A stretch of 45,786 nucleotides of DNA from positions 1 through 45,786 of the IMG/VR virus record IMGVR_UViG_3300022923_000027, one strand, 5' to 3'. Below the pieces are notes generated by a model that made no database searches, had not been told where the DNA came from, and saw only the letters and a list, made by a program, of their open reading frames with translations. This document shows positions 1,409 through 28,269 of this stretch, piece after piece. The position numbers and the translations under genes are program-made. This DNA comes from a virus. Its lineage: Duplodnaviria > Caudoviricetes. The number at the start of each line of letters is the position of its first letter. Positions within the stretch are counted from its first letter, which is position 1.

Positions 1409-1633
1409 ATGATTGATTTTATTGCAGACATGAAAGCTTCGATTGCGAAGCATGAAAGAGAGTTAGCCTCAAAGCCTCGCAAGGGCATGATGGTATATTT
1501 AGATAAAAGCACTCCAATTTTGGTGCAGTACGCAAGTGAAGACGCTTTCAACAAAGCCAAGTCGGTCACTTCTCGTAGTGGGCAGTCGAGTTGCTTGCGT
1601 AATGTATTAGATGCAGGAGGAAGATTGCAGTAA
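1409..1633 (+). CDS. hypothetical phage protein
   Basis: ORF track; TTGACA(1374)-N17-TAAACT ends 6 nt before ATG. Confidence 0.65.
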   Translation: MIDFIADMKASIAKHERELASKPRKGMMVYLDKSTPILVQYASEDAFNKAKSVTSRSGQSSCLRNVLDAGGRLQ

Positions 1634-16604: not shown

Positions 16605-16810
16605 GGAGATTCTCGACGGAGATCTCCTGTGGGTGACTGAACAAACTCGTCGTGAGCGAGTTAAGGTACGCGATTCTCTGTGGTGGAGTGCTGATGGGCA
16701 AATGTCTGAGGCAGGACAATACCAAGTCTAATCGTAGTAGGAAGTAGGTAATCATAGAACTGCTGTTCACGCCGAAAACTTGAGGGTATACAGGAATCCC
16801 TTCCCACATC
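16605..16810 (+). ncRNA. structured RNA resembling the manA RNA motif of marine phages
   Basis: Non-coding GC-richer island after TTGACA(16508)-N17-TATAAT; closing helix TGTGGG/CCCACA, hairpins AACTCG/CGAGTT and GAGGG/CCCTT; GGGTGACTGAAYAAAC...GTTAAGGT...GGTAYACAGGAAYCC blocks recalled from phage manA RNAs. Confidence 0.6.
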
Positions 16811-16828
16811 TATTTCTTAATCATACTT

Positions 16829-17960: not shown

Positions 17961-17994
17961 ATTTGTAAAATTAGAATAAAAATTAAAAATGATA

Positions 17995-18071
17995 TAAGTT
18001 GTTGAATATCAACGAGTTGCGCGAAAATCGCCTAGGCAGTTTCGCCTAAGTCATTGAACCGCAACAAGATA
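17995..18071. repeat. 77-bp dyad element E1
   Basis: TAAGTTGTTG-N5-CAACGAGTTG + 27 bp (CCTAGG) + TAAGTCATTG-N5-CAACAAGATA. Confidence 0.9.
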
Positions 18072-18091
18072 CAACTATTTTTAAAAAAGTG

Positions 18092-18119
18092 TTGACAGCA
18101 CGCAAAAATCTGTCATACT
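18092..18119 (+). promoter_or_regulatory. TTGAC...CTGTCATACT class early promoter (leaderless)
   Basis: TTGACA-N16-CATACT ends 6 nt before ATG 18126; same class at 6129, 15033, 16894, 20032, 21412, 22572, 22719. Confidence 0.75.
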
Positions 18120-18125
18120 AAAGTC

Positions 18126-18515
18126 ATGATTAAGGATGAACCTCGATACAAGATAGACTATAATCGCCCTGTTTTTGTATACCGCAACTTGCACAAAAAG
18201 TGTTGGAGTGTCAAGCAGGATGGTTTGGTCAAAGCTCACAGTCAACTTCTTGCCATGCACAGTTGCACTTTTAAAGTTAGTCAAGCAGGACGCAAGCGAG
18301 TAATCAAGGAGCAACGCAAAAATGTTCATGCAGGCGTTCATGGTTATCTTGAGAATTGGCAGATGGGCGAATGGATCGACTCGCATCCAACAGCAAGACC
18401 TGTAACTTATAACCCTTACAAGTATGAGAATTTTGTTGACAAAGACACCGAGCAAATGGTAGACTATGCTATTGCCGTAAGATTAGAACCCAAACAAGTA
18501 TTAGCAGTATTATGA
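18126..18515 (+). CDS. conserved phage hypothetical protein
   Basis: VYRNLHKKCWSV...F.VS.AGR.RV..E.RKNVHA...YNPYK, recalled as a widespread phage family. Confidence 0.8.
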   Translation: MIKDEPRYKIDYNRPVFVYRNLHKKCWSVKQDGLVKAHSQLLAMHSCTFKVSQAGRKRVIKEQRKNVHAGVHGYLENWQMGEWIDSHPTARPVTYNPYKYENFVDKDTEQMVDYAIAVRLEPKQVLAVL

Positions 18516-18663
18516 ACACAGACCAATTAACAAAAACACAACTAAAAAAAGAAATCCTCAATGAGTTCGATTATTTATCTCCAAGCGACTTGATAAGAAT
18601 TTTTGAGATGATTTTTGGACATGGTGAGGTTGAATTTAACGAAGTAGATTGGAGCAAGTAATT

Positions 18664-18888
18664 ATGACTCAAGCAAAAATTAGACAAGAAATCGCAGACA
18701 TTGTTCACGGAAATCTCCGCTATGCAGATCCGTTCGACAGAATGAATCTTGAGAAGGGTGAGCGAGTTGGAGTTAAGGGTTTCACAGTTCAGTCAGCAGA
18801 AGAGGTCTTGGATGACATCATTTGTGACTTGACAAGTTTGCAAGATGAGATTAGAATAGAATCATCTTTTCAATCAGCACAACTATAA
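18664..18888 (+). CDS. hypothetical phage protein
   Basis: First ATG in track ORF 18649..18888. Confidence 0.6.
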   Translation: MTQAKIRQEIADIVHGNLRYADPFDRMNLEKGERVGVKGFTVQSAEEVLDDIICDLTSLQDEIRIESSFQSAQL

Positions 18889-18901
18889 CACAAGAAAAAT
18901 T

Positions 18902-19321
18902 ATGGGATTAGATCAATACGCATACTCACGACCACCACGCAAACGCAACTCGGATGACGATGTGCAACTGATGGAGTGGCGAAAGCACAATCGCTTGCAA
19001 GGTTGGATGCAACAACTTTGGTACGACAAAGGTTGCCCAAATGCAAAAACAGAAGATGATGAGATGGGGGATTTTAATTGCGTTGAGTTGCAATTAACCA
19101 AGCAAGACATTGACAACTTGGAATATGCAATCGAGAATTTTGAATTGCCCGAAGCCAATGGATTCTTTTGGGGAAGCGATTCATACTTTTGGCATAACGA
19201 GAATGATGAACCATTTCCCGAGAATGACTATTGGTACAAGCAGAACGACCTTCAATTTGTTGAGGATGCAAAAAAAGCACTTGACAATGGACACAGAATC
19301 TACTATTCTTGTTGGTATTGA
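18902..19321 (+). CDS. conserved phage hypothetical protein (MGLD...WRKHN...GFF.G family)
   Basis: MGLDQY, WRKHNRLQGWM, FNC, GFFWG and YSCW motifs. Confidence 0.8.
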   Translation: MGLDQYAYSRPPRKRNSDDDVQLMEWRKHNRLQGWMQQLWYDKGCPNAKTEDDEMGDFNCVELQLTKQDIDNLEYAIENFELPEANGFFWGSDSYFWHNENDEPFPENDYWYKQNDLQFVEDAKKALDNGHRIYYSCWY

Positions 19322-19323
19322 TT

Positions 19324-19503
19324 ATGGAAGAACTACAAAACATCATTAACGATCTACAAGCACGACTAGCAATAGTTGGTGGTGGTAGAATCATCATTAC
19401 TAGCGACAATTGCTCAGTCAGTTTGGGCAAAGAACACGAAGATTTCGAGGTTCAAGAAAACCAAGCTGATGTTGAGATGTACAACCAAATGTGGGGACAA
19501 TAA
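19324..19503 (+). CDS. hypothetical phage protein
   Basis: ATG 2 nt after upstream stop. Confidence 0.55.
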   Translation: MEELQNIINDLQARLAIVGGGRIIITSDNCSVSLGKEHEDFEVQENQADVEMYNQMWGQ

Positions 19504-19506
19504 GTT

Positions 19507-19722
19507 ATGGAACGAAAAGAATACATTGATGCAGTTTGCCAAGGTGAGCCACTAGAAACACCATCTTACAATCACGCTTCAGATACTTGGAGTTTGTGGT
19601 TCGAGGAGTCTCCAACTCCTTATCACCCCTACTTTCAAAGGGATTTGATTGAAGTGAGCTTCGAATCCAAAACGGATGCCGAAAGGGCATATCACCATTA
19701 TTCACAGCCAATACAAGGTTAA
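19507..19722 (+). CDS. hypothetical phage protein
   Basis: ORF track. Confidence 0.6.
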   Translation: MERKEYIDAVCQGEPLETPSYNHASDTWSLWFEESPTPYHPYFQRDLIEVSFESKTDAERAYHHYSQPIQG

Positions 19723-19890
19723 TCATGTCAAACAAAAACATTGAAAACCTGCGCAAACAGGTTAGACAAATGGGCTACAACCTCGCAGAAATAGAGAAGC
19801 GCGGGCTTAAGGGCCCGGATCATGTTGCTCGCAGGCTTGCTCACAATCTATTGCTTGGTCAATTATACGAGCTAGAAAAGAGGGTTTAAC

Positions 19891-19929
19891 AGGTTGACGG
19901 GCCCGCTTGTGGGGGCGGGCCCGTTAACC
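19891..19929. terminator. strong GC-rich hairpin abutting element E2
   Basis: GGTTGACGGGCCCGC / GCGGGCCCGTTAACC inverted repeat at the end of an operon; no clear U-tract. Confidence 0.6.
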
Positions 19930-20000
19930 CCTTATCTTCAACGACTTACGAAAAACCGCCCAGGCCCGCATTTCATAACTCATTGAATACCAATCACTTA
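19925..20000. repeat. dyad element E2 (76 bp; first palindrome degenerate)
   Basis: ...CAACGACTTA + 27 bp (CCCAGG) + TAACTCATTG-N5-CAATCACTTA. Confidence 0.85.
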
Positions 20001-20080
20001 CAACAATCTTTAGTTTTATGCAAAAAAAGTGTTGACATAACATCATTTTCTGTCATACTTGTATACATAAAGACGATAAC

Positions 20081-20140
20081 CGCAAACAAAAAAAATTAGT
20101 CGAAACAAAAAAAACTTAATCGAAGAAAAAAAAGCTTGAC
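20081..20140 (+). repeat. three tandem 20-bp A-tract repeats ending in a -35 box
   Basis: cgcaaacaaaaaaaattagt / cgaaacaaaaaaaacttaat / cgaagaaaaaaaagcttgac. Confidence 0.7.
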
Positions 20141-20200
20141 AGATCAGCCAAAATTTAGTAAAATTAATCCATCAAGACAATAACTCACAAAGAAAAAATT

Positions 20201-20956
20201 ATGACCAAAAAAATCAACCTCTCCGTATGTGCAACCAAAGAATCTTCCTTCAAGGAAATTCAAGCAGTCAAGACTCCCGAAGCAACTGACTCTTGGCAAC
20301 CCATTAGTCATGCGTTTCTTGTGGATCGTGTGCAGAACCAAATGCAAGACAATGGTTGGGAAATTGTTGACACTTATCATTCCCTTCATCGCTTTGGTCA
20401 ACGCTACTTTGGCTTGTTTCATGTCAAGAATACAGGCGTTGACAATGACGAGCGTGGAACCATTGTTGGTCTTCGTAACTCGCACGACAAATGCTTTCCT
20501 GCAGGACTCTGCATGGGCAATGCTCCATTTGTCTGCTCAAATCTCATCTTCACCAATGAGGTTGTACTTGCAAGACGGCACACTAAAAACATCTTGAACG
20601 ACTTGTCTCAAGTTATCGCTCGCACTCTTGGCAAAATGACCGAGACATGGACGAGCGACGAGCAACGCATCCAAGCGTACAAAGAACATGAACTTGACAA
20701 CTCTCAAGCCCATGACCTTGTGATTCGTGCTTACCAAAATGGTGCGATCAGCAAAGCAAAAATCGCTGATGTTGTCGAGCAATGGCACAAGCCCGAACAC
20801 GATGACTTCTCACCTCGCACCATGCACTCGCTTTACAATGGATTCACGCATATCCTTAAAGGTGGAATCACGGCATTGCCAAATCGTTCTCTCGCTTTGC
20901 ATGGCGTTCTCGACTCTGAAGTGGGCTTGATTTCTCAACCTGCAAACGCATCTTAA
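20201..20956 (+). CDS. DUF932-family protein
   Basis: PISH, GLRNSHDK, G...FVCSN, RRHT and SLYN.FT motifs. Confidence 0.75.
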   Translation: MTKKINLSVCATKESSFKEIQAVKTPEATDSWQPISHAFLVDRVQNQMQDNGWEIVDTYHSLHRFGQRYFGLFHVKNTGVDNDERGTIVGLRNSHDKCFPAGLCMGNAPFVCSNLIFTNEVVLARRHTKNILNDLSQVIARTLGKMTETWTSDEQRIQAYKEHELDNSQAHDLVIRAYQNGAISKAKIADVVEQWHKPEHDDFSPRTMHSLYNGFTHILKGGITALPNRSLALHGVLDSEVGLISQPANAS

Positions 20957-20998
20957 TCATAACAAACCATAAACCTAAACCTAAAAAAAATTAAAATT

Positions 20999-21229
20999 AT
21001 GAAAAAGCAACCAAAACTCCAAAATGTAGTTGATAGTCTCAAGGGTCGTTTCGTTTCCCTTCTTGTAAAGCAAGGCGAGCAACGCAAAGCGTTCTCTGCA
21101 AAGGTAAACGGCGTCACCTCTCGCCATGTAATGTTCTCGGACATGAATGGAAGAAATCGTCGAGTTAATCGTCGCCATGTGCTTCGGGCAACTTGTGCCG
21201 ACAAGACTTTTAAAAGGTCGGTGAGTTAA
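20999..21229 (+). CDS. small basic hypothetical protein
   Basis: ORF track; followed by terminator. Confidence 0.65.
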   Translation: MKKQPKLQNVVDSLKGRFVSLLVKQGEQRKAFSAKVNGVTSRHVMFSDMNGRNRRVNRRHVLRATCADKTFKRSVS

Positions 21230-21253
21230 TCGAGGCAAGCCCTCGTATGTTAT

Positions 21254-21278
21254 AGCCTCCCTTCGGGGAGGCTTTTTT
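21254..21278 (+). terminator. intrinsic terminator
   Basis: AGCCTCCC-TTCG-GGGAGGCT then T-run. Confidence 0.9.
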
Positions 21279-21297
21279 GTTTTTAAATTTATTGCTG

Positions 21298-21374
21298 TAA
21301 GTTGTTGAATTTCAAGCAGTTATGCAAATCGGGCCTAGGCAATTTCGCGCAAGTCGTTGAGCCTCAGCAAGATG
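21298..21374. repeat. 77-bp dyad element E3
   Basis: TAAGTTGTTG-N5-CAAGCAGTTA + 27 bp (CCTAGG) + CAAGTCGTTG-N5-CAGCAAGATG. Confidence 0.9.
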
Positions 21375-21446
21375 CGTAACAAAACTTTTTTTATTTTTTT
21401 CAATTTAGGGGTTGACTTAGCGAGTTAATCTGTCATAATTATGTAC

Positions 21447-22175
21447 ATGATTAAGACAACTATTCTCACTCAAGGTAACGCAAAGATAGTCAAAGGCGAG
21501 GAGCTTGGCTATGTAACTAAAGGCATCCATTTTGCTCCTGCTAATCTTTCGGGCAATGAAGTTTGCCAATGGCGTAGCAAAGGTTGCACGGCAAGTTGCC
21601 TCAACACAGCGGGTCGTGGTCAAATGAATAGCATTCAACAATCACGCATTGCCAAGACAAAGTTATTCTTCGACAAGCAAATTGAATTCCTTCACAAGCT
21701 ATCGAAAGAAATTTCCAATTCAATCAAGTCATCGACAAAGAAGGGTATGAAGTCAGTCTTTCGTCTTAATCTCACAAGCGACATCGCTTGGGAGTCTGTA
21801 TTTTTCAATGAAGAAAAACCTCAAACAATCTTTGACAAGTTTCCGTCAATCCAATTCTACGATTATACAAAGTCATTCAAGAGAATGGCTCAGTATCTTG
21901 GCAAGCACAAAGAGTTTCCAAAAAACTATCACTTGACCTTTAGCCGTTCAGAAACAAACGACAAGCTTAGCCAAATGGTTCTTGAAATGGGTGGCAATGT
22001 AGCCGTTGTGTTTCGCAATCAACTTCCAAAAACATGGAAGGGTTACGAGGTTGTCAATGGTGATGACAATGACCTTCGCTTTCTTGACAAGCAAGGTGTG
22101 GTCGTCGGCTTAATCGAGAAGGGCATGGCAAAAAAGGATTCAACGGGATTTGTTCAAGAGGGAATTGACTCTTGA
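21447..22175 (+). CDS. GP88-like phage protein (Cys-rich, radical-SAM-like)
   Basis: C...S.GC...CL...GRG, FRLN.TSD..W, FYDYTK, YHLTFS, GD..DLRFLD, KG.AK.D..GFV; second Met fits the leaderless promoter. Confidence 0.75.
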   Translation: MIKTTILTQGNAKIVKGEELGYVTKGIHFAPANLSGNEVCQWRSKGCTASCLNTAGRGQMNSIQQSRIAKTKLFFDKQIEFLHKLSKEISNSIKSSTKKGMKSVFRLNLTSDIAWESVFFNEEKPQTIFDKFPSIQFYDYTKSFKRMAQYLGKHKEFPKNYHLTFSRSETNDKLSQMVLEMGGNVAVVFRNQLPKTWKGYEVVNGDDNDLRFLDKQGVVVGLIEKGMAKKDSTGFVQEGIDS

Positions 22176-22386
22176 CAATCCAACTCAACTCAACTATTAT
22201 TACATCATGACAGATACTTATTACGAATCGGCTGAAGACATTAAACTCTCACAACAAGAAGCATTCAATGTACTTGCTCAACATGGTTGCCAAGAGATTG
22301 ACGAATTCTTTCAAGACATGGGCGACAAGGAAGAGTATGATGCACAAAAAGTGTTGCAATGGTTAGGCTATTAACAAATCAAAGAT

Positions 22387-22491
22387 ATGAAAAAAATACT
22401 ATTATTCGGATCAATTTTATTCACCTTTAGTGCATACACTTTGCTTTGCATTTATGCGGATGTTGTAAACGCTTGGTTGCAAGCGAGTTAG
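22387..22491 (+). CDS. 34-aa single-TM microprotein (MKKILLFGSILFTFSAYTLLCIYADVVNAWLQAS)
   Basis: Translated by hand; 3' end runs through the first palindrome of E4. Confidence 0.45.
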   Translation: MKKILLFGSILFTFSAYTLLCIYADVVNAWLQAS

Positions 22492-22542
22492 GGCAAACCG
22501 CCCTGGCCAAAATCGCGCAAGTCGTTGATGAAGAAGCGCTTA
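22466..22542. repeat. 77-bp dyad element E4
   Basis: TAAACGCTTG-N5-AAGCGAGTTA + 27 bp (GGGCAAACCGCCCTGG...) + CAAGTCGTTG-N5-GAAGCGCTTA; spacer inverted relative to E6/E7/E9. Confidence 0.85.
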
Positions 22543-22605
22543 TGACTTTTTTTAATTTTATGTTTTTTATGTTGACTCTAGGCAAGGGTCTGTCATAATG
22601 ATACT

Positions 22606-22708
22606 TACCAACACGACCTGATCAAGCTGCAAATTGATGGAGGTGAAGAGAAGCATGATTGCAGTCAACGCTAAACTCTTGGGGGTTCGATTCCCTCCGT
22701 GTCTGGTA
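22606..22708 (+). ncRNA. unclassified 103-nt four-way-junction RNA with a tRNA T-arm
   Basis: Own promoter (TTGACT 22572, CATAAT 22594); terminal stem TACCA-ACACG / CGTGT-C-TGGTA; T-arm GGGGG-TTCGATT-CCCTC; two internal arms. Confidence 0.7.
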
Positions 22709-22752
22709 TGATTTTTACTTGACTTCTGCACTCACTCTGTCATAATTGAACC

Positions 22753-22866
22753 ATGATAAAGATTAGAAAAAAGATTCTCTTCACCAAGTCAAGACCACAC
22801 AAGGTCAAGGCGAAAGTGATCCATCGCAAACTCAAACACAAGGAGGCATTAACCCATGTATCTTAA
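22753..22866 (+). CDS. 37-aa very basic peptide (MIKIRKKILFTKSRPHKVKAKVIHRKLKHKEALTHVS)
   Basis: Translated by hand; TTGACT(22719)-N16-CATAAT ends 6 nt before ATG. Confidence 0.6.
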   Translation: MIKIRKKILFTKSRPHKVKAKVIHRKLKHKEALTHVS

Positions 22867-23101
22867 CGACCCACATCATATACAAGTCCAAGACTTGAAT
22901 GCAATCGAGGCAAACGAATTAGCAATGTCATTCATTCACGACGAACTCATCGAACCAATGGAAAGAAACAATTTGCTTGACAATGACGCACTTTCTCTAT
23001 TGAATGTAGTTGGTGGAGCATTAAAATCCATCGCTCAAAAAGCTCACTCATACGAAACCCTATACGAAAACAAGCACGATGCAAAGTATCTCCGTAACTA
23101 G
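22856..23101 (+). CDS. hypothetical phage protein
   Basis: ORF track; AAGGAGG upstream. Confidence 0.65.
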   Translation: MYLNDPHHIQVQDLNAIEANELAMSFIHDELIEPMERNNLLDNDALSLLNVVGGALKSIAQKAHSYETLYENKHDAKYLRN

Positions 23102-23280
23102 CAAAAAGTATCTCATCACCAAAAGCAATGATAATTGTGTGATCGCAGTTCTTTCTGAAGACAAGACATCGAAATCTGATTTCTTTATCAACGAAACAAC
23201 CATGAAAAAAAACATTGACAACAAGACATTTGTTCGCCATAATGTATTAAAGTATAACAACGAGCCAATCTACATCTACC

Positions 23281-23640
23281 ATGAAGACATTTAATGATTT
23301 AAATTTCCAACCTCATCCTCAAGCAGAAGACCTTGGTGTGCAAGCACGCATGACTTTTGACAATGGTTACGCTATCAGCGTGGTCGCGAACACGGAAGGA
23401 GGGACAAGTTTTTATGGAAATCATCCTGACACTTACGAGGTTGCTATTTTTAATCAGCGTGGAGATTTTGTTCCTTTGCAGAAATGTGATGATGTTATTG
23501 GTTGGCAAGACGCAATACAAGTATCCAAGTTGATGAAACAATTTCAAGAAGATGGCTTGCAACACGAAAAACTTTTGCATGCAATTAGGCAAGACTTCGA
23601 CAAGCAACTTAAACAAAAAAACCTAGCAAGATATGAATAG
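23281..23640 (+). CDS. conserved phage hypothetical protein
   Basis: F.NGY..SVV...YG...YEVA....DV.GW, recalled as a widespread phage family. Confidence 0.75.
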   Translation: MKTFNDLNFQPHPQAEDLGVQARMTFDNGYAISVVANTEGGTSFYGNHPDTYEVAIFNQRGDFVPLQKCDDVIGWQDAIQVSKLMKQFQEDGLQHEKLLHAIRQDFDKQLKQKNLARYE

Positions 23641-23797
23641 TTACCAAATATTAAACAACGGCGAGCCCGCGGGCATTGTGGGCACTCTCGACTATATAGT
23701 GATCGCACTTCGCAATCTTGAATCGAATATTGATCGGGCGACAACTCATTCACCTTATACAATTGCATTGGTAGAGCGGGCAATAAGAATGTCAACG

Positions 23798-23857
23798 CAA
23801 TAAATACCAAATAGAAATAGAACAAATACAAATAGAAATACAAATACAATAAATACA
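23798..23857 (+). repeat. degenerate (SAAATA)n tract
   Basis: caataaataccaaatagaaatagaacaaatacaaatagaaatacaaatacaataaataca. Confidence 0.7.
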
Positions 23858-23900
23858 TTTAAACTAAAAGCACAAATGCACTAAAGCGACAGAAATTCTG

Positions 23901-23977
23901 TAAGTTGCTATATATCAACGAGTTACGAAAAACTCGCCTAGGCGATTTCGCCTAAGTTGTTGAATACCAATGACTTA
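23901..23977. repeat. 77-bp dyad element E5, at the convergence of the two arms
   Basis: TAAGTTGCTA-N5-CAACGAGTTA + 27 bp (TCGCCTAGGCGA) + TAAGTTGTTG-N5-CAATGACTTA. Confidence 0.9.
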
Positions 23978-23982
23978 CTGAA

Positions 23983-24204
23983 CTATTCGTCCATCAACCA
24001 CTCGTCGAGTGCGTAGGTGTCTAGATCTGGATCCTTGAAGCTTGCTCCATCTGGAGTGCAGGGAGTACCCATCTCCTGAAGTCTATCCGCAAGGTCTTTG
24101 TAATTGACAAAGCGGCGAGAGAGCTTGTAAAGGCTTTCGTCGTTATCTAACCAAAGGGCAACATTCCAAGTCGCCCAATTTTTCCAACCGTTGTAATTTT
24201 CCAT
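23983..24204 (-). CDS. conserved phage hypothetical protein (YNGW.N..TW.V.LW family)
   Basis: YNGWKNWATWNVALWLDND...TPDG motif. Confidence 0.8.
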   Translation of the reverse strand: MENYNGWKNWATWNVALWLDNDESLYKLSRRFVNYKDLADRLQEMGTPCTPDGASFKDPDLDTYALDEWLMDE

Positions 24205-24244
24205 GATATTAATCTAGTTTAATTTTTTGTGAAAGTCAAGCGAA

Positions 24245-24430
24245 TCACTCCCATTCGGAGTGAAAGCCCCAATCAATGTCGGGCTGATCCTCGAACTCGA
24301 GCAGAGCAATCTGGTCTTCCAGCTCGCCGATTTCGTTGCGTATCGCAACTCTTTGCGAGTCAGTCAAAATGCACTCTTTGAGTGCTTTGTGAAGGTCGAT
24401 GATTTCTTTTTGCATTTCTGTTTTAGTCAT
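24245..24430 (-). CDS. hypothetical phage protein
   Basis: ATG 5 nt after minus-strand TTGACA-N17-TACCTT. Confidence 0.65.
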   Translation of the reverse strand: MTKTEMQKEIIDLHKALKECILTDSQRVAIRNEIGELEDQIALLEFEDQPDIDWGFHSEWE

Positions 24431-24494
24431 ACCTAAAGGTAGCATCATTAAGTAGCTTTGTCAAATTTTTTTTTAAATTATTTTTATTTTGTTG

Positions 24495-24571
24495 TAAAGC
24501 TTTGGGCGTCAACGAGTTACGAAAAACAGACCTGGGCGGTTTGCCCTAAGTCGTTGATGTTCAAGAGTTTG
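24495..24571. repeat. 77-bp dyad element E6
   Basis: TAAAGCTTTG-N5-CAACGAGTTA + 27 bp (CCTGGG) + TAAGTCGTTG-N5-CAAGAGTTTG. Confidence 0.9.
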
Positions 24572-24627
24572 GGAGAAAGGTCAAGCCCCGATACTCAGTG
24601 AATGACCTATACTCCCAAAAGTTTGTA

Positions 24628-24714
24628 TTAAAAGTCTGCCCCGAAAAAGAATTGGTTAATCATGCGAATGATTCCGACTATACTGCTGATGATGATGATT
24701 GTAGCTATATCCAT
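24628..24714 (-). CDS. 28-aa hydrophobic microprotein (MDIATIIIISSIVGIIRMINQFFFGADF)
   Basis: TTTACT-N17-TATAAT ends 6 nt before ATG; paralogue of 17781..17858. Confidence 0.65.
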   Translation of the reverse strand: MDIATIIIISSIVGIIRMINQFFFGADF

Positions 24715-24751
24715 GCGTATATTATACCAAAAATCAAGGTTCAAGTAAAGA

Positions 24752-25048
24752 TTAATCTTCAAAAACTTCACGCATCAATGGGCTGACTGCCGTCATGTCT
24801 GCAAGGTTTTCGTCGTTGTCGTAGTCTTCGTCCTCTGATGCTTTATCTTCACTTGACGCAAGCTCGGAAACCTCATCTTCTACATCTCGCTGATTTGCTT
24901 CAAGCAAGCCATGTTCGACGATTAATTCTTCTGCTAGTATATCAGCACGAAGGTCATCAACAAATGATTTAAGACCTGCAGGAAGCTCGGTTGCGTTATT
25001 GTTGCTCGCCATTTGGCGAATGATTTCTAATCTTTGTGATTCTGTCAT
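24752..25048 (-). CDS. acidic hypothetical protein
   Basis: ORF track. Confidence 0.65.
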   Translation of the reverse strand: MTESQRLEIIRQMASNNNATELPAGLKSFVDDLRADILAEELIVEHGLLEANQRDVEDEVSELASSEDKASEDEDYDNDENLADMTAVSPLMREVFED

Positions 25049-25264
25049 GATGTTAATTATGTTTAATTTTAAGAGTTTTGCAAGGAAAAAGTTTGCTGAT
25101 TTTTATTATTTTCGAGTATTTCGTCGAGTTCAATTTGTGCATTAATCACAAGTTGTTGAGCCCCAACATGACCAAGCTCGGCAAGTGAGGTGTGAATTCG
25201 TATGATTTCTTTGAGTTCGTTTATTTTGTTCATGATAGTAGAGTAAGGGAATTGATTTGATTTG

Positions 25265-25834
25265 TCAACCTAAAAGGTAATGATTTAAAGCACTCTCAAG
25301 CTTGCCTTTGTTAAGGTTTTCTTTTCGGTCGCGAGGAACAAAGTTTGACCAATGGTTAGAGCCTCCACTTTGTTTTTCTGTTATATGGTCAACATTCCAA
25401 GCGTTTTTAATGTTTCTGTTTGTCCAATTAGACCAATTTTTGCCGTCTTCAAGCTGAACATCAAGAAAGATTTTGAACTGATCAAAAGAACATCCCAAAG
25501 TTTTTTTGTTGGCTCCGAGAGCATGAATCCTTATCATAAATTTTGATCTTTCGGATCCATCTGTAATCATTGATACTTTTGGATCGTGGGCTACTTTATT
25601 TCTGATTCTTTTATACTTGGCTTTGACTTCAGATTTTTGTTGCCTTGTTTTTTTGATTAACTTTTGAAGTCTTGCAATCTTAATGTCCAACTCTTCAATT
25701 TGATTTCTTTCGGAGATTTTCAGCATATCGGCAAGATCAAGATCTGTTTTGCTATTATTTTCAATTTTTCTTGTTCCGTGGTGTTTGTTCCAAGCTTCAG
25801 ATATTTTAACTTTCATAATTTTATTTTTTAGCAA
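25265..25834 (-). CDS. HNH endonuclease domain protein
   Basis: C-terminal WNVDHITEKQSGGSNHWSNFVPRDRKENLNK; start uncertain. Confidence 0.75.
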   Translation of the reverse strand: MLKNKIMKVKISEAWNKHHGTRKIENNSKTDLDLADMLKISERNQIEELDIKIARLQKLIKKTRQQKSEVKAKYKRIRNKVAHDPKVSMITDGSERSKFMIRIHALGANKKTLGCSFDQFKIFLDVQLEDGKNWSNWTNRNIKNAWNVDHITEKQSGGSNHWSNFVPRDRKENLNKGKLESALNHYLLG

Positions 25835-25864
25835 TTAATGTATAAGTTTTATATTATATATAAT

Positions 25865-25990
25865 TTATTTTGTGTCAAACTTTTTTTTGCTTACATCCTT
25901 AAAAAGATCAATTTTCTTTTCGGTCATGGATTTGTGCATAAAGAAGAAAGCGGGAGCAAAAGTCAAGAGGATCAAGATATCGTAATTCAT
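25865..25990 (-). CDS. 41-aa membrane microprotein (MNYDILILLTFAPAFFFMHK...)
   Basis: Internal ATG of the track ORF; paralogue at 26170..26250. Confidence 0.6.
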   Translation of the reverse strand: MNYDILILLTFAPAFFFMHKSMTEKKIDLFKDVSKKKFDTK

Positions 25991-26095
25991 ATTTTTTTTC
26001 GTTAGGTTAATTAATGTTATGTATACAATGTATACGCAAAATCCGATAAAGTCAAGCAAAACGCAAAAAAAAGTTAAATTATTTTTATTTTGTTG

Positions 26096-26172
26096 TAAGT
26101 TGTTGTTGTTCAATGAGTTACGCAAAACGAGCCTGGGCGGTTTGCCCTAAGTCGTTGACTCTCAGCGACTTA
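26096..26172. repeat. 77-bp dyad element E7
   Basis: TAAGTTGTTG-N5-CAATGAGTTA + 27 bp (CCTGGG) + TAAGTCGTTG-N5-CAGCGACTTA. Confidence 0.9.
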
Positions 26173-26250
26173 CGAGTCGCTAAAGATGTCTTTGTGCATG
26201 ATGTAGAATACTGCAACCCAAGGCAAGAATAGTAGAATATCGTAACTCAT
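26170..26250 (-). CDS. 26-aa membrane microprotein (MSYDILLFLPWVAVFYIMHKDIFSDS)
   Basis: Translated by hand; paralogue of 25865..25990; its TAA is the end of E7. Confidence 0.55.
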   Translation of the reverse strand: MSYDILLFLPWVAVFYIMHKDIFSDS

Positions 26251-26467
26251 AGTTGTTTTGGTTATTTACTTGAGAGAATAGGGGCTTTGAACTTTACGCT
26301 TAATTTTCTAGCGATATGCATCGCTTGTGCGTGAGATTTAGCCGAGTCAACAAGTTTGCCATTATAGACAACGCTAAACCAATTCGAGAAATTCGGGCTT
26401 CTATGTACATTTATCATTTTATTATTTAATCAAAAATTAGAGATTTACGCAAGCAAAAAGTGTGATT

Positions 26468-26656
26468 TTATTGAAAAACCACATTAAAACGAAACTGATT
26501 GAGACCTTCGTCTCGCATGATTTGATTTAGGTAAGCTTCACTTGAAGCAGTGCGAACCCGTGGGCGATCATTGCCCTCTGAATCGATTCCTTGATCGAAG
26601 ATCTTGACAGACCAATGCGTTGACCATTTTTTAATGCGTACTTGTATTTTATTCAT
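26468..26656 (-). CDS. hypothetical protein, copy 1 (MNKIQVRIKKWSTHWSVKIFD...)
   Basis: ORF track; paralogue at 27557..27733. Confidence 0.75.
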   Translation of the reverse strand: MNKIQVRIKKWSTHWSVKIFDQGIDSEGNDRPRVRTASSEAYLNQIMRDEGLNQFRFNVVFQ

Positions 26657-26771
26657 AATTATTTTCGTTTAAGGATTTTAGTTAAAATGAGGATTTTTTC
26701 TCTTTCGGTTAAGTTTGTCATTATGTTATTACTATAAAAAATTTTTCGTATAATTGCAAGAAAAAAGTGAA

Positions 26772-27239
26772 TTATTTTTCTTCCCAAAGTTCGGGATGAC
26801 TTGGAAAGTGAAAAACAAAGCGACCTTGATTTTGTTGGGCAAAGTCAATTTCGAATTGGGAAGGCTCGACTCCATAACGAAGGCGAAAGTTTGCCTCGGA
26901 TGTCGAGATGCCAAGTTCCTTCTTGAGCTTTACGACTTGGTTCATGCTTGGACGAGCAAGCTTGTTTTTGAAAACCTTTTCTTTTGCTTTTGCTTTTGCT
27001 TTTGGGGCAAAAGTTTCATTGCCAACTTGGAAACGCTCGGGAGCGTATTGATTCCAAAGGGTTGCAACTTCGGAAGGTGTCTCGCCATTGGCGACAAGAG
27101 AATGAGCCATTGCCTCGAGATTCTTTTTTGCGTTGAATCCACGAGTCCAAACGGAATGGTCATCCGAGAAGTCAAAGAACCAATCATGTCCTTGAAGGGC
27201 GTTTACGAAGTCGTTAATCATTTTATTTGTCTTAATCAT
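26772..27239 (-). CDS. hypothetical phage protein
   Basis: L..HDW.F.FSDDH.VW..G motif; ATG follows a TTGACT promoter. Confidence 0.7.
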   Translation of the reverse strand: MIKTNKMINDFVNALQGHDWFFDFSDDHSVWTRGFNAKKNLEAMAHSLVANGETPSEVATLWNQYAPERFQVGNETFAPKAKAKAKEKVFKNKLARPSMNQVVKLKKELGISTSEANFRLRYGVEPSQFEIDFAQQNQGRFVFHFPSHPELWEEK

Positions 27240-27302
27240 ATACCTACAAGGTAGCACATAAACTAGCAAAAGTCAAATTTATTTGCAATTATTTTCATCA
27301 CA

Positions 27303-27327
27303 TAAAACACTATCAATCAAGCACTTA
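27303..27327. repeat. accessory third palindrome of E8
   Basis: TAAAACACTA-N5-CAAGCACTTA, starting 79 bp before E8. Confidence 0.65.
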
Positions 27328-27381
27328 CATAAAACCGCGAAAAAAACTTTAATTTATTTGCGATTATTTTTTATTTTGTTG

Positions 27382-27458
27382 TAAAGCGTTGACTGTCAAC
27401 GACTTACGCAAACCGGCCCTAGGATTTTTTACGCAAGTTGCTGATACGCAACAACTTA
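27382..27458. repeat. 77-bp dyad element E8
   Basis: TAAAGCGTTG-N5-CAACGACTTA + 27 bp (CCTAGG) + CAAGTTGCTG-N5-CAACAACTTA. Confidence 0.9.
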
Positions 27459-27474
27459 TGCAATCTTTTTAAAG

Positions 27475-27549
27475 TGGTGGGCTAAGGTGGATTTGAACCA
27501 CCGACCGCCGCGTTATCAACACGGAGCTCTACCGCTGAGCTATTAGCCC
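27475..27549 (-). tRNA. tRNA-Ile(GAT)
   Basis: GGGCTAA-TAGCTCAGCGGTAGAGC-T-CCGTG-TTGATAA-CGCGG-CGGTC-GGTGG-TTCAAAT-CCACC-TTAGCCC-A-CCA; full cloverleaf with encoded CCA. Confidence 0.95.
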
Positions 27550-27556
27550 GCTAGGA

Positions 27557-27733
27557 TCAATGCTGAGTGACAACATTAAAGCGAGGGGAATTTAACCCTT
27601 CATCTTTTTTTATTTCCCTAAGATACGCAAGGCTAGATGCACTTCTAACTCTAGGATATTCAGTTCCTGTATCAAAGATCTTGACAGACCAATGCGTTGA
27701 CCATTTTTTTATTCTAACTTCAATTTTATTCAT
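27557..27733 (-). CDS. hypothetical protein, copy 2 (MNKIEVRIKKWSTHWSVKIFDTGTEYPRVRSASS...), 58 aa, not in ORF track
   Basis: Translated by hand; 20 of the first 21 aa identical to 26468..26656. Confidence 0.75.
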   Translation of the reverse strand: MNKIEVRIKKWSTHWSVKIFDTGTEYPRVRSASSLAYLREIKKDEGLNSPRFNVVTQH

Positions 27734-27770
27734 AACTTTATTATAGGGTTAAAGGTTAAAAGCGCAAGCT

Positions 27771-28019
27771 TTATTTTACAAGTTCAAGTATTTCTTCGCA
27801 AGCTTCGACACAACCTGATTCCCACCACAACTCGGGATCTTGTATTTCAGAAACAACTTTTTCGGATGACAACTCGGAAGGCAAGGAAACAACTTCGCCA
27901 AGCCCAAGTTTACCACCAAAGGCTTCTGCCAAGTTGTCGCAAGCACGATCGTTGCAACCTTCGTCAGCGTCGGCAAGTATTGAAAAGAGGGCTTGTATTT
28001 TTTGTTGTGATAATTTCAT
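27771..28019 (-). CDS. hypothetical phage protein
   Basis: ORF track. Confidence 0.65.
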   Translation of the reverse strand: MKLSQQKIQALFSILADADEGCNDRACDNLAEAFGGKLGLGEVVSLPSELSSEKVVSEIQDPELWWESGCVEACEEILELVK

Positions 28020-28113
28020 TTTATTTATTCTTTAATTGTTTAACTTACTATATATACAAACTATATTAAAAATTCAAAAAAGTCAAGCACATAGCAAAAA
28101 AAACTTTGTATCA

Positions 28114-28138
28114 TAAACTATTGATTATCAAGTACTTA
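28114..28138. repeat. accessory third palindrome of E9
   Basis: TAAACTATTG-N5-CAAGTACTTA, starting 79 bp before E9. Confidence 0.7.
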
Positions 28139-28192
28139 TGTAAACACGCAAAAAAAAGTTGTTTTATTTTAAGAAAAGTTTTAGGTTTGTTG

Positions 28193-28269
28193 TAAGTTGT
28201 TGTATACCAACGAGTTACGCAAAAAACGCGTAGGCGGTTTGCCCTAAGTCGTTGACCCTGTGCTACTTA
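28193..28269. repeat. 77-bp dyad element E9
   Basis: TAAGTTGTTG-N5-CAACGAGTTA + 27 bp (CGTAGG) + TAAGTCGTTG-N5-GTGCTACTTA. Confidence 0.9.

What the first reader, a model, noticed from the sequence alone, without database searches (positions are those of the whole stretch)
22606..22708. Unrecognised 103-nt tRNA-mimic RNA with a perfect four-way junction and complementary loops
Seen: the predicted start (7 nt after CATAAT) coincides with the first base of a 10-bp terminal stem with one bulged C (TACCA-ACACG / CGTGT-C-TGGTA). Arm 1 is ACCT/AGGT plus ATCAA/TTGAT with loop GCTGCAAA. Arm 2 is AAGAG/CTCTT, AGC/GCT and TGAT/GTCA. Arm 3 is a canonical T-arm, GGGGG-TTCGATT-CCCTC. CTGCAA (22627-32) is exactly complementary to TTGCAG (22659-64), allowing a loop-loop pseudoknot. 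There is no D-arm or 3' CCA, so it is not a normal tRNA, although CTGCAAA equals a Cys anticodon loop. It is the first transcript of the E4 cassette. Inference: a tRNA-mimic ncRNA, possibly a decoy for anticodon nucleases or other tRNA-sensing defences, or a Y-RNA-like molecule.
Basis: partly seen in the sequence, partly recalled or inferred. Interest (0 to 1): 0.78.

Follow-up and report, generated by a model that had tools for sequence, protein, structure and literature searches.

The report
Marine-phage counterpart of T4 RNAC
An uncultured phage carries a conserved 103-base RNA gene of an uncatalogued family, with the same predicted layout as phage T4's RNA C, whose function is still unknown (a tRNA-type T-arm, a fixed GG, and two arms with complementary tips); it likely shows host proteins a tRNA 'elbow' with no free anticodon, an idea that could be tested in T4.

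Summary
The RNA is real. I found 30 distinct sequences (55-99% identical) in uncultured phages. Their stems covary: 15 of 32 tested pairs change on both sides. The loop-loop helix has one compensatory change (CUGCGA/UCGCAG). No Rfam or ARAGORN hit.

A D-arm equivalent exists: a short stem plus an unpaired GG (22639-40), invariant in 30 of 30, placed like tRNA G18-G19 to meet the T-loop. The 'Cys anticodon' follows its partner loop, not its decoding identity.

T4 RNA C (function unknown) has the same plan: terminal stem, short stem with GG, two complementary 6-nt loops (also with one compensatory change), and a T-arm. The long and short arms are swapped, and neither family's model detects the other.

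The gene has its own promoter, is missing from one complete relative, and also sits in an unrelated 84-kb phage. No Ro60 domain or shared phage protein was found.

Best reading: a stable tRNA-elbow mimic acting in trans on host tRNA-binding proteins. The fold is well supported; the function is inferred. Transcription is not shown.

The parts
22572..22599 (+). Predicted sigma-70-type promoter TTGACT-N16-CATAAT, one of 7 copies of a TTGAC-N11-CTG(T/C)CATA(A/C)T motif in the window
   Evidence: At 5 of the other 6 copies an ATG follows 6-7 nt after the -10 box (leaderless layout), which puts the start here at 22606/22607 (inferred).
22606..22708 (+). The RNA gene (103 nt), four-way junction
   Evidence: Model R1 scores members 87-117 bits and non-members at most 22 bits.
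22606..22615 (+). P1 (acceptor-like terminal stem), 5' strand; pairs with 22698-22708, bulge C22703
   Evidence: 3 of 9 pairs compensatory in A1; further variants in L428, L416, L441, L425 and L433.
22616..22644 (+). Arm 1: 3-4-bp D-like stem, purine 22620, 6-bp inserted hairpin, unpaired GG
   Evidence: Inserted hairpin: 5 of 6 pairs compensatory. Position 22620 is a purine in 30 of 30.
22627..22632 (+). Kissing loop L2, CUGCAA
   Evidence: Pairs with 22659-64: 4 pairs never vary, 1 has a compensatory change (L428), 1 is broken once (L425).
22639..22640 (+). Invariant unpaired GG, predicted equivalent of tRNA G18-G19
   Evidence: 30 of 30; kept in 23 of 23 members found with a pattern that did not contain it. 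The T-loop contact is inferred from tRNA structure (recalled).
22646..22680 (+). Arm 2: 5-bp stem AAGAG/CUCUU, two internal loops, 3+3 bp
   Evidence: Distal helices: 5 of 6 pairs compensatory. Proximal helix is nearly invariant.
22659..22664 (+). Kissing loop L3, UUGCAG
22681..22697 (+). Canonical T-arm, loop UUCRAYU
   Evidence: U54, U55, C56, R57, A58 equivalents in 30 of 30; kept in 23 of 23 members from the T-loop-free search. One stem pair is unpaired in 5 of 30.
22709..22718 (+). U-rich trailer, predicted 3' end or trimming zone; no encoded CCA
   Evidence: TTT within 10 nt in 30 of 30 (related sequences) versus 18% of 10-nt windows; CCA near the end in 0 of 30.
22719..22746 (+). Next predicted promoter, for the downstream 37-codon ORF at 22753; the RNA is therefore not that ORF's leader
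22480..22528 (.). Copy of the palindromic boundary repeat that separates the early cassettes
   Evidence: Family D2.

Best explanation
This is a conserved phage RNA gene, behind a predicted promoter of its own, with covarying stems and the same predicted layout as T4 RNA C; it likely folds into a tRNA 'elbow' (T-loop docked on the invariant GG) locked by a six-pair loop-loop kiss, and would act in trans as a stable decoy for host proteins that grip the tRNA elbow. Shown: the four helices, complementary loops with one compensatory change, invariant GG and T-loop, no encoded CCA, no fixed neighbouring gene, presence in an unrelated phage, and absence from a complete relative. Inferred: (1) transcription early in infection from the host-type promoter; (2) G-U55 and G-C56 contacts as in tRNA; (3) the kiss forms within one molecule and buries both loops, so no anticodon is offered to ribosomes, synthetases or anticodon nucleases; (4) the exposed elbow titrates a host elbow reader, such as a tRNA-degrading or tRNA-sensing defence protein, RNase P or a T-loop modification enzyme, and so favours phage translation. 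My odds: secondary structure about 0.95, kiss about 0.85, elbow about 0.7, decoy role about 0.4.
For: Covariation in the stems. Compensatory A-U to G-C change in the kiss in L428, whose nearest relatives (86-87% identical) keep A-U. GG and T-loop kept in 23 of 23 members found without those letters in the pattern. T4 RNA C and 7 homologues show the same parts in the same order, including GG just 5' of the short stem in 8 of 8 and a compensatory loop pair in phage TG1, so two families without detectable sequence likeness keep the same three features. Trans action: a promoter on each side, different neighbouring genes across clades, presence in an 84-kb siphovirus-like genome that matches only 2 of 91 window proteins, and clean absence at the syntenic site of complete relative G003. 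Half of the members (15 of 30) have a leader starting AGTTCTTT, which resembles the boxA of stable-RNA operons (motif recalled).
Against: No experiment or read data shows a discrete transcript. No target or partner was identified and the host is unknown. The GG/T-loop contact cannot covary here because both sides are invariant. The kiss rests on one compensatory event per family, and L425 breaks its outer pair. One RNA C homologue (TG1) has C at the U54 position. The tRNA connector (U8/N9) and variable loop are missing and P1 is 10 bp with a variable bulge, so the L shape is not guaranteed. With tRNA-like stacking the two loops would start at opposite ends, which could favour a kiss between molecules. 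T4 RNA C was classed as a late RNA (PMC9697503, passage), whereas this gene lies in an early-type cassette.
Confidence: 0.42

Rival explanations
1. The two loops pair between molecules, so the RNA assembles into rings, chains or cages (like phi29 pRNA, ROOL, GOLLD or manA), each subunit displaying a tRNA elbow.
For: If P1 stacks on the T-arm and arm 1 on arm 2, as in tRNA, the loops point apart (inference). Covarying loop pairs first read as tertiary proved to be intermolecular in ROOL and GOLLD (10.1101/2024.12.08.627333, passages). manA, found in the window and in G001 and G005, forms kissing-loop cages (10.64898/2026.07.01.735769).
Against: In both families one arm is long with internal loops and the other is short and straight, and they trade places, which fits one arm reaching round to the other within a molecule (inference). 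Self-pairing through the UGCA palindrome is lost in L428 (duplex -2.3 versus -7.8 kcal/mol for the hetero pair), so a symmetric HIV-DIS-type dimer is disfavoured.
Confidence: 0.2
2. It is a tRNA-like processing or stability element: RNase P, RNase Z or exonucleases cut at it, or it caps the 3' end of a longer phage RNA.
For: In G006 it lies at the 3' end of a roughly 1,070-nt ORF-free, strongly folding region with no promoter-like motif seen directly in front. RNA C homologues lie between tRNA genes. 15 of 30 members have a 14-24-nt leader that would need trimming.
Against: In the window's clade the predicted start coincides with the first base of P1 and the next gene has its own promoter, so there is nothing to process. 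A processing signal would not need an invariant kiss.
Confidence: 0.15
3. It is a Y-RNA-like adaptor that tethers a protein to a nuclease or ribosome through its tRNA-like module.
For: YrlA RNAs also carry T- and D-like elements and occur in phages (PMC4201824, passages). The host is unknown and could encode Ro60.
Against: GNCGAAN0-1G absent in 30 of 30. No TROVE domain in 6 carrier records, 2 of them complete, whereas nearly all YrlA genes lie within 4 kb of Ro60. Arm order differs; no Rfam hit at E up to 10.
Confidence: 0.07
4. It is a Cys-anticodon decoy for anticodon nucleases, or a decayed tRNA-Cys.
For: CUGCAAA reads like a Cys anticodon loop. The T-arm and the CUCUU before it resemble class II tRNAs: T4 tRNA-Leu scores 18.4 bits with R1.
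Against: The loop is 6 nt by covariation, changes to CUGCGA together with its partner, and sits in the D-arm position. Length and helices are strictly conserved across 55% divergence, which is not decay.
Confidence: 0.05
5. It is a cis-acting leader or riboswitch for the downstream gene.
For: Kissing loops and T-loops occur in riboswitch aptamers (recalled).
Against: A second promoter-like motif separates it from the next ORF in the window and in most flanks. Downstream genes differ between clades. No expression platform was seen.
Confidence: 0.05

Closest known systems
Phage T4 RNA C (rnaC, species 1 RNA; NC_000866 70908-71046)
   Same: Same order of parts: irregular terminal stem; 3-4-bp stem with GG immediately 5' of its 3' strand; hairpin ending in a 6-nt loop; second arm ending in the exact complement; canonical T-arm; no encoded CCA. 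One compensatory loop pair in each family. The long arm ends in UUGNNG and the short arm in CNNCAA in both. Function unknown (PMC9697503, PMC3014915, passages).
   Different: 139 versus 103 nt. In RNA C arm 1 is long and arm 2 is a straight 10-bp hairpin behind a 7-9-nt A-rich linker; here arm 1 is short, arm 2 long, and the linker 1-2 nt. No sequence-level link: R1 gives RNA C 13.6 bits and R2 does not report this RNA even with filters off. RNA C lies in the tRNA cluster and was classed as late; this gene stands alone in an early-type cassette.
tRNA (RF00005) and the tRNA-like domain of tmRNA (RF00023)
   Same: T-arm consensus, GG at a D-loop-like position, T-arm continuous with a terminal stem.
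   Different: No 7-nt anticodon loop, no variable loop, no U8/N9 connector, 10-bp bulged terminal stem, no CCA in 30 of 30; not called by ARAGORN or Rfam.
Bacterial Y RNA (YrlA)
   Same: Non-coding RNA carrying T- and D-like tRNA elements; found in phages (PMC4201824).
   Different: No Ro60-binding motif, no TROVE gene in the carriers searched, different arm order, and a kissing-loop pair.
Kissing-loop oligomers: phi29 pRNA (recalled), ROOL, GOLLD, manA
   Same: Phage RNAs with complementary loops; manA occurs in the same genomes.
   Different: No Rfam match to any of them. Oligomerisation is untested here. None of the passages read describes a T-arm/GG module in them.

Membership tests
T4 RNA C type | Four-way junction: terminal stem, two arms, T-arm last | tested here: met
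   These features were derived here from T4 and 7 homologues; no Rfam family or published definition was found.
T4 RNA C type | Two complementary 6-nt loops with a compensatory change | tested here: met
   L428; TG1.
T4 RNA C type | Unpaired GG just 5' of the 3' strand of a short D-like stem | tested here: met
   30 of 30 here; 8 of 8 RNA C sequences read.
T4 RNA C type | Sequence homology (detectable by covariance model) | tested here: not met
T4 RNA C type | Gene inside a tRNA cluster | tested here: not met
   Nearest tRNA is about 4.8 kb away on the other strand; none in the member loci scanned.
T4 RNA C type | Stable discrete transcript | tested here: inconclusive
   Only assembled contigs were available.
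tRNA | T-arm consensus | tested here: met
tRNA | 7-bp acceptor stem with NCCA end, 5-bp anticodon stem with 7-nt loop | tested here: not met
tRNA | D-loop/T-loop tertiary contact | not testable with these tools
   Both partners are invariant; needs probing or a structure.
Y RNA (YrlA) | GNCGAAN0-1G Ro60 motif near the 5' end | tested here: not met
   0 of 30; motif from PMC4201824.
Y RNA (YrlA) | TROVE/Ro60 gene nearby | tested here: not met
   0 of 6 carrier records, 2 complete; three further records were not held; host genome not testable.
tmRNA (one- or two-piece) | Tag ORF, CCA end, ARAGORN/Rfam call | tested here: not met
   Relatives G001 and G002 carry a separate tmRNA as well as this RNA.
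Kissing-loop RNA oligomers (pRNA, ROOL, GOLLD, manA) | Loop pairing between molecules | not testable with these tools
   Covariation cannot tell intra- from intermolecular pairing.

The most novel reading that the evidence does not exclude
This RNA and T4 RNA C are two independent solutions to one unrecognised class of phage RNA, a 'clamped tRNA elbow': it keeps the T-loop/GG corner, replaces the anticodon with a six-pair kiss, moves between unrelated phages as a promoter-plus-RNA cassette, and works as an RNA anti-defence factor (or as a self-assembling elbow array) against host machines that read tRNA shape.
Probability: 0.3. Interest if true: 0.88.

Novelty: new variant of a known kind. Interest (0 to 1): 0.7.

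Why it matters
T4 RNA C is a long-known stable phage RNA whose role is still described as unknown (PMC9697503, PMC3014915). A second family from unrelated marine-type phages, with no detectable sequence likeness, keeps the same three features: T-loop, a positioned GG and a six-pair kiss. That tells which nucleotides should matter, and turns an untestable metagenomic RNA into point-mutant experiments in T4 and laboratory E. coli. If the elbow decoy holds, phages counter tRNA-directed host functions with a dedicated RNA rather than a protein. If the kiss is intermolecular, this would be a very small natural self-assembling RNA carrying a tRNA face.

Tried and rejected
Rfam: no match at gathering scores in the window or at the RNA in 20 + 16 other loci; at E up to 10 only 5 chance matches.

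Cultured phages: no full-length match for the window RNA (only T-arm fragments) or for a distant member. Cellular genomes: an exact pattern for the 3' half found 0 stretches in the GTDB collection. A looser pattern saturated with chance hits after 1 of 64 parts and was not analysed.

False families from loose patterns were rejected: the L127 type and the L137/L150 type, which I read as antisense strands of coding genes (gene identity recalled, not searched), and 10 of 33 stretches (no R1 match). L206 scores 22 bits and lacks the complementary loops; left out.

T-loop docking on the P1 bulge was dropped because the bulge is 0-3 nt. A self-complementary UGCA dimer was dropped because of L428.

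Expression: 12 runs were listed and 4 salt-marsh metatranscriptomes laid. Contigs in X3 and X4 cover 22588-22724, but they run on beyond the gene, neighbouring DNA is covered at similar depth, and contigs cannot show ends or strand. This is no evidence either way.

Partner search: no TROVE and no PolyA_pol/CCA-enzyme domain in 5 of 5 records. No protein is shared by all five carrier records at tblastn E 1e-5, though three are incomplete; 4 of 113 G006 ORFs match G005 and were not followed up. Host identification failed.

In one search my first helix (columns 9-11/77-79) was placed out of register on a gapped part of the alignment and scored 25% paired; the short stem was read from the single folds instead.

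Literature: 9 searches listed no paper describing this RNA or a kissing loop in RNA C; the library lacks most older subscription papers on T4 species 1 RNA. The viral RNA catalogue PMC10690425 could hold the family: 4 of its readable supplements gave no hit for short motifs, but its two zip archives and three large files could not be read.

Full report
Setting. The window is a 45.8-kb fragment of an uncultured phage: rIIA/rIIB, DNA ligase, PhoH and a terminase large subunit, a manA RNA at 16605-16812 and a tRNA-Ile at 27475-27549. Its terminase is only about 25% identical to those of cultured phages; a complete relative is 184 kb (G003). The host could not be determined. The candidate lies in a region of small genes divided by palindromic repeats, between two copies of a promoter motif that occurs 7 times in the window; at 5 of the other 6 copies an ATG follows 6-7 nt after the -10 box, which places the start here at 22606/7 by analogy.

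The observation. All helices are present as written. The single-sequence fold is only moderately unusual (z -1.91; 7 of 200 shuffles as good). ARAGORN and Rfam do not call it.

Homologues. I searched with patterns that each left out different features. A pattern using only the terminal stem and T-loop gave 17 members among 21 viral stretches and 33 among 103 metagenome stretches (some are the same assembly seen twice), or 25 distinct sequences with the window. A pattern free of both loops and of the terminal stem added five more. A pattern free of the T-loop, the GG and the terminal stem returned 33 stretches, 23 members and 10 chance hits. converge on the same 23 viral contigs, and one search added none among the 100 loci given to the model. 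Model R1 separates members (87-117 bits) from everything else (22 bits at most). The 30 distinct sequences are 55-99% identical, mean 75%. An exact pattern found no copy in cellular genomes, and BLAST found none in cultured phages.

Structure. In the 25-sequence alignment 17 of 35 predicted pairs change on both sides. In the 30-sequence alignment 15 of the 32 pairs I tested do, and 97.9% of cells pair, against 38-46% in slid registers (I left out the outer terminal stem and the short D-like stem there because indels misalign them). Both loops are 6 nt. The loop-loop helix was invariant in the first 25 sequences, which says nothing by itself. L428 then showed CUGCGA/UCGCAG, an A-U to G-C change on both sides, while its nearest relatives keep A-U; L425 breaks the outer pair. 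One event is thin support, but it is the predicted kind. It also removes two readings: the 'anticodon' changes from GCA to GCG, and the UGCA palindrome that could have made a symmetric dimer is lost. The terminal-stem bulge varies from 0 to 3 nt.

It is invariant in 30 of 30, with a purine opposite in 30 of 30. It and the canonical T-loop are kept in 23 of 23 members found without asking for them. In tRNA, G18 and G19 of the D-loop pair with U55 and C56 of the T-loop to make the elbow (recalled). Arm 1 therefore reads as a D-arm with a 6-bp hairpin inserted in its loop. The contact itself is inferred.

Context. Neighbouring genes differ between clades. Of the four close relatives found through a neighbouring protein, two carry the RNA and two do not; in complete G003 the promoter-plus-RNA unit is simply absent between the same flanking genes. 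G006, a complete 84-kb genome with portal, prohead protease, capsid and tail genes of siphovirus type, matches only 2 of 91 window proteins yet carries the RNA, at the 3' end of a roughly 1,070-nt ORF-free region that folds far better than shuffles (z -7.1, 20 shuffles) and has no Rfam match. No protein is common to all carriers tested. A TTT run follows within 10 nt in 30 of 30, none has CCA near the end, and 15 of 30 have a leader starting AGTTCTTT, which resembles boxA (recalled). Together this points to an accessory, mobile, trans-acting RNA whose partner, if any, is a host molecule.

Closest known RNA. Earlier scan notes named T4 RNA C for similar-looking RNAs, so I fetched it. It folds into a terminal stem, a short AGG/CCU stem with GG at the same place, a long arm ending in UUGACG, a second arm ending in CGUCAA (the exact complement) and a canonical T-arm. 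BLAST found it in 748 phage records; I took 7 of these, 6 divergent. All 8 keep the fold, the GG and the complementary loops; phage TG1 has the compensated pair UUGAUG/CAUCAA, though it also has C at the U54 position. In both families the long, internally looped arm ends in UUGNNG and the short arm in CNNCAA, but the arms have swapped places. Neither model detects the other family, so this RNA is built like RNA C but is not shown to be homologous to it. RNA C is described as of unknown function in PMC3014915 (one passage) and PMC9697503 (passages; Northern-validated, classed as late). I found no paper noting its loop complementarity, but the older T4 literature is largely outside the library.

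Other families. Y RNA fails on motif, gene context and arm order (PMC4201824 passages). tRNA and tmRNA fail on acceptor, anticodon and CCA. Kissing-loop oligomers remain open: in ROOL and GOLLD some covarying loop pairs proved intermolecular (10.1101/2024.12.08.627333, passages), and manA, which these phages also carry, forms cages through kissing loops (10.64898/2026.07.01.735769, part 1 of 5 and passages). PMC2864571 and PMC9964418 (passages) cover manA only. PMC10690425 (parts 1-2 of 5) may include this family among its 8,495 models; its alignments could not be read.

Mechanism. I commit to a clamped tRNA elbow acting as a decoy. The RNA would be made early from a host-type promoter, fold with the T-loop on the GG, and bury both loops in the kiss, leaving an elbow without an anticodon or encoded CCA. 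It would then occupy host proteins that read the elbow. The fold is well supported, the elbow is likely, and the decoy role is about 0.4. The main rivals are intermolecular assembly (0.2) and a processing or capping element (0.15). Transcription was not shown: only contigs were available. An earlier AI note on another genome described what appears to be the same family without the GG or the RNA C link; it is not independent evidence.

Verdict. A real, uncatalogued RNA family and a new variant of the T4 RNA C kind. Interest 0.70, chiefly because the shared features make a long-standing orphan RNA of T4 directly testable.

Noticed in passing
L724:7421-8490 (G006; also L425:383-1452): A roughly 1,070-nt region without ORFs (longest 62 codons stop to stop), folding at -327.7 kcal/mol (z -7.1 against 20 shuffles), with no Rfam match at E up to 1 and no homologue among loci held; it lies directly upstream of this RNA behind a TTGACA motif. 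Possible new giant phage RNA of GOLLD/ROOL size.
   Followed up: partly
L748:1409-1547 (-), T4 rnaC: T4 RNA C has two complementary 6-nt loops with a compensatory change in phage TG1, and a GG at a D-loop-like position; not found described in the papers searched.
   Followed up: yes
L381, L382, L390, L393, L408, L419, L426, L442 (about 1480-1600): A tRNA-like RNA with five arms, in which the anticodon-position loop (TGGCA) is complementary to the variable-arm loop (TGCCA); no Rfam hit at the element in L381. L407 and L417 look related.
   Followed up: no
L385:1488-1576 (-), L391 about 1455-1560 (+), L423: A tRNA-like RNA inside tRNA clusters, with a normal D-arm and an anticodon-position loop ACCCT complementary to AGGGT/AGGGA in a long variable arm; no Rfam hit at the element in L385 or L391. 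L149, L424, L434 and L378 have similarly expanded arms.
   Followed up: no
L206:1468-1559 (+): A 92-nt T-arm RNA with terminal stem and two arms but without clear loop complementarity; 22 bits with R1, no Rfam or ARAGORN call.
   Followed up: partly
window 6129, 15033, 18092, 20032, 21412, 22572, 22719 (+): Seven copies of a promoter motif TTGAC-N11-CTG(T/C)CATA(A/C)T; five are followed by an ATG 6-7 nt later, suggesting leaderless mRNAs.
   Followed up: partly
window 17981-28269: Seven to eight copies of a roughly 50-90-bp palindromic repeat that separate small gene cassettes; earlier scan notes cover it.
   Followed up: no
window 16605-16812 (+); L719:6490-6699; L726:16282-16491: manA RNA in three carriers of this RNA; manA was recently reported to form cages.
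   Followed up: partly
L729:8119-8510, L736:6721-7082, L745:12536-12946: Relatives G001, G003 and G002 each encode a tmRNA, with unlike tag peptides.
   Followed up: no
L253, L305, L311, L314, L428, directly 3' of the RNA: A conserved stretch (GCGGAAGTA.TTCGGGC ... ATCCATG.ATGAAAAA ... TTTTCCGTCC) with a variable insert follows the RNA in one clade; possibly a second structured RNA.
   Followed up: no
L725:45-605 (G006); L720:14980-15753 (G005): G006 encodes a KhpA/B-type KH-domain protein and G005 a protein with an arginyl-tRNA-protein transferase C-terminal domain.
   Followed up: partly
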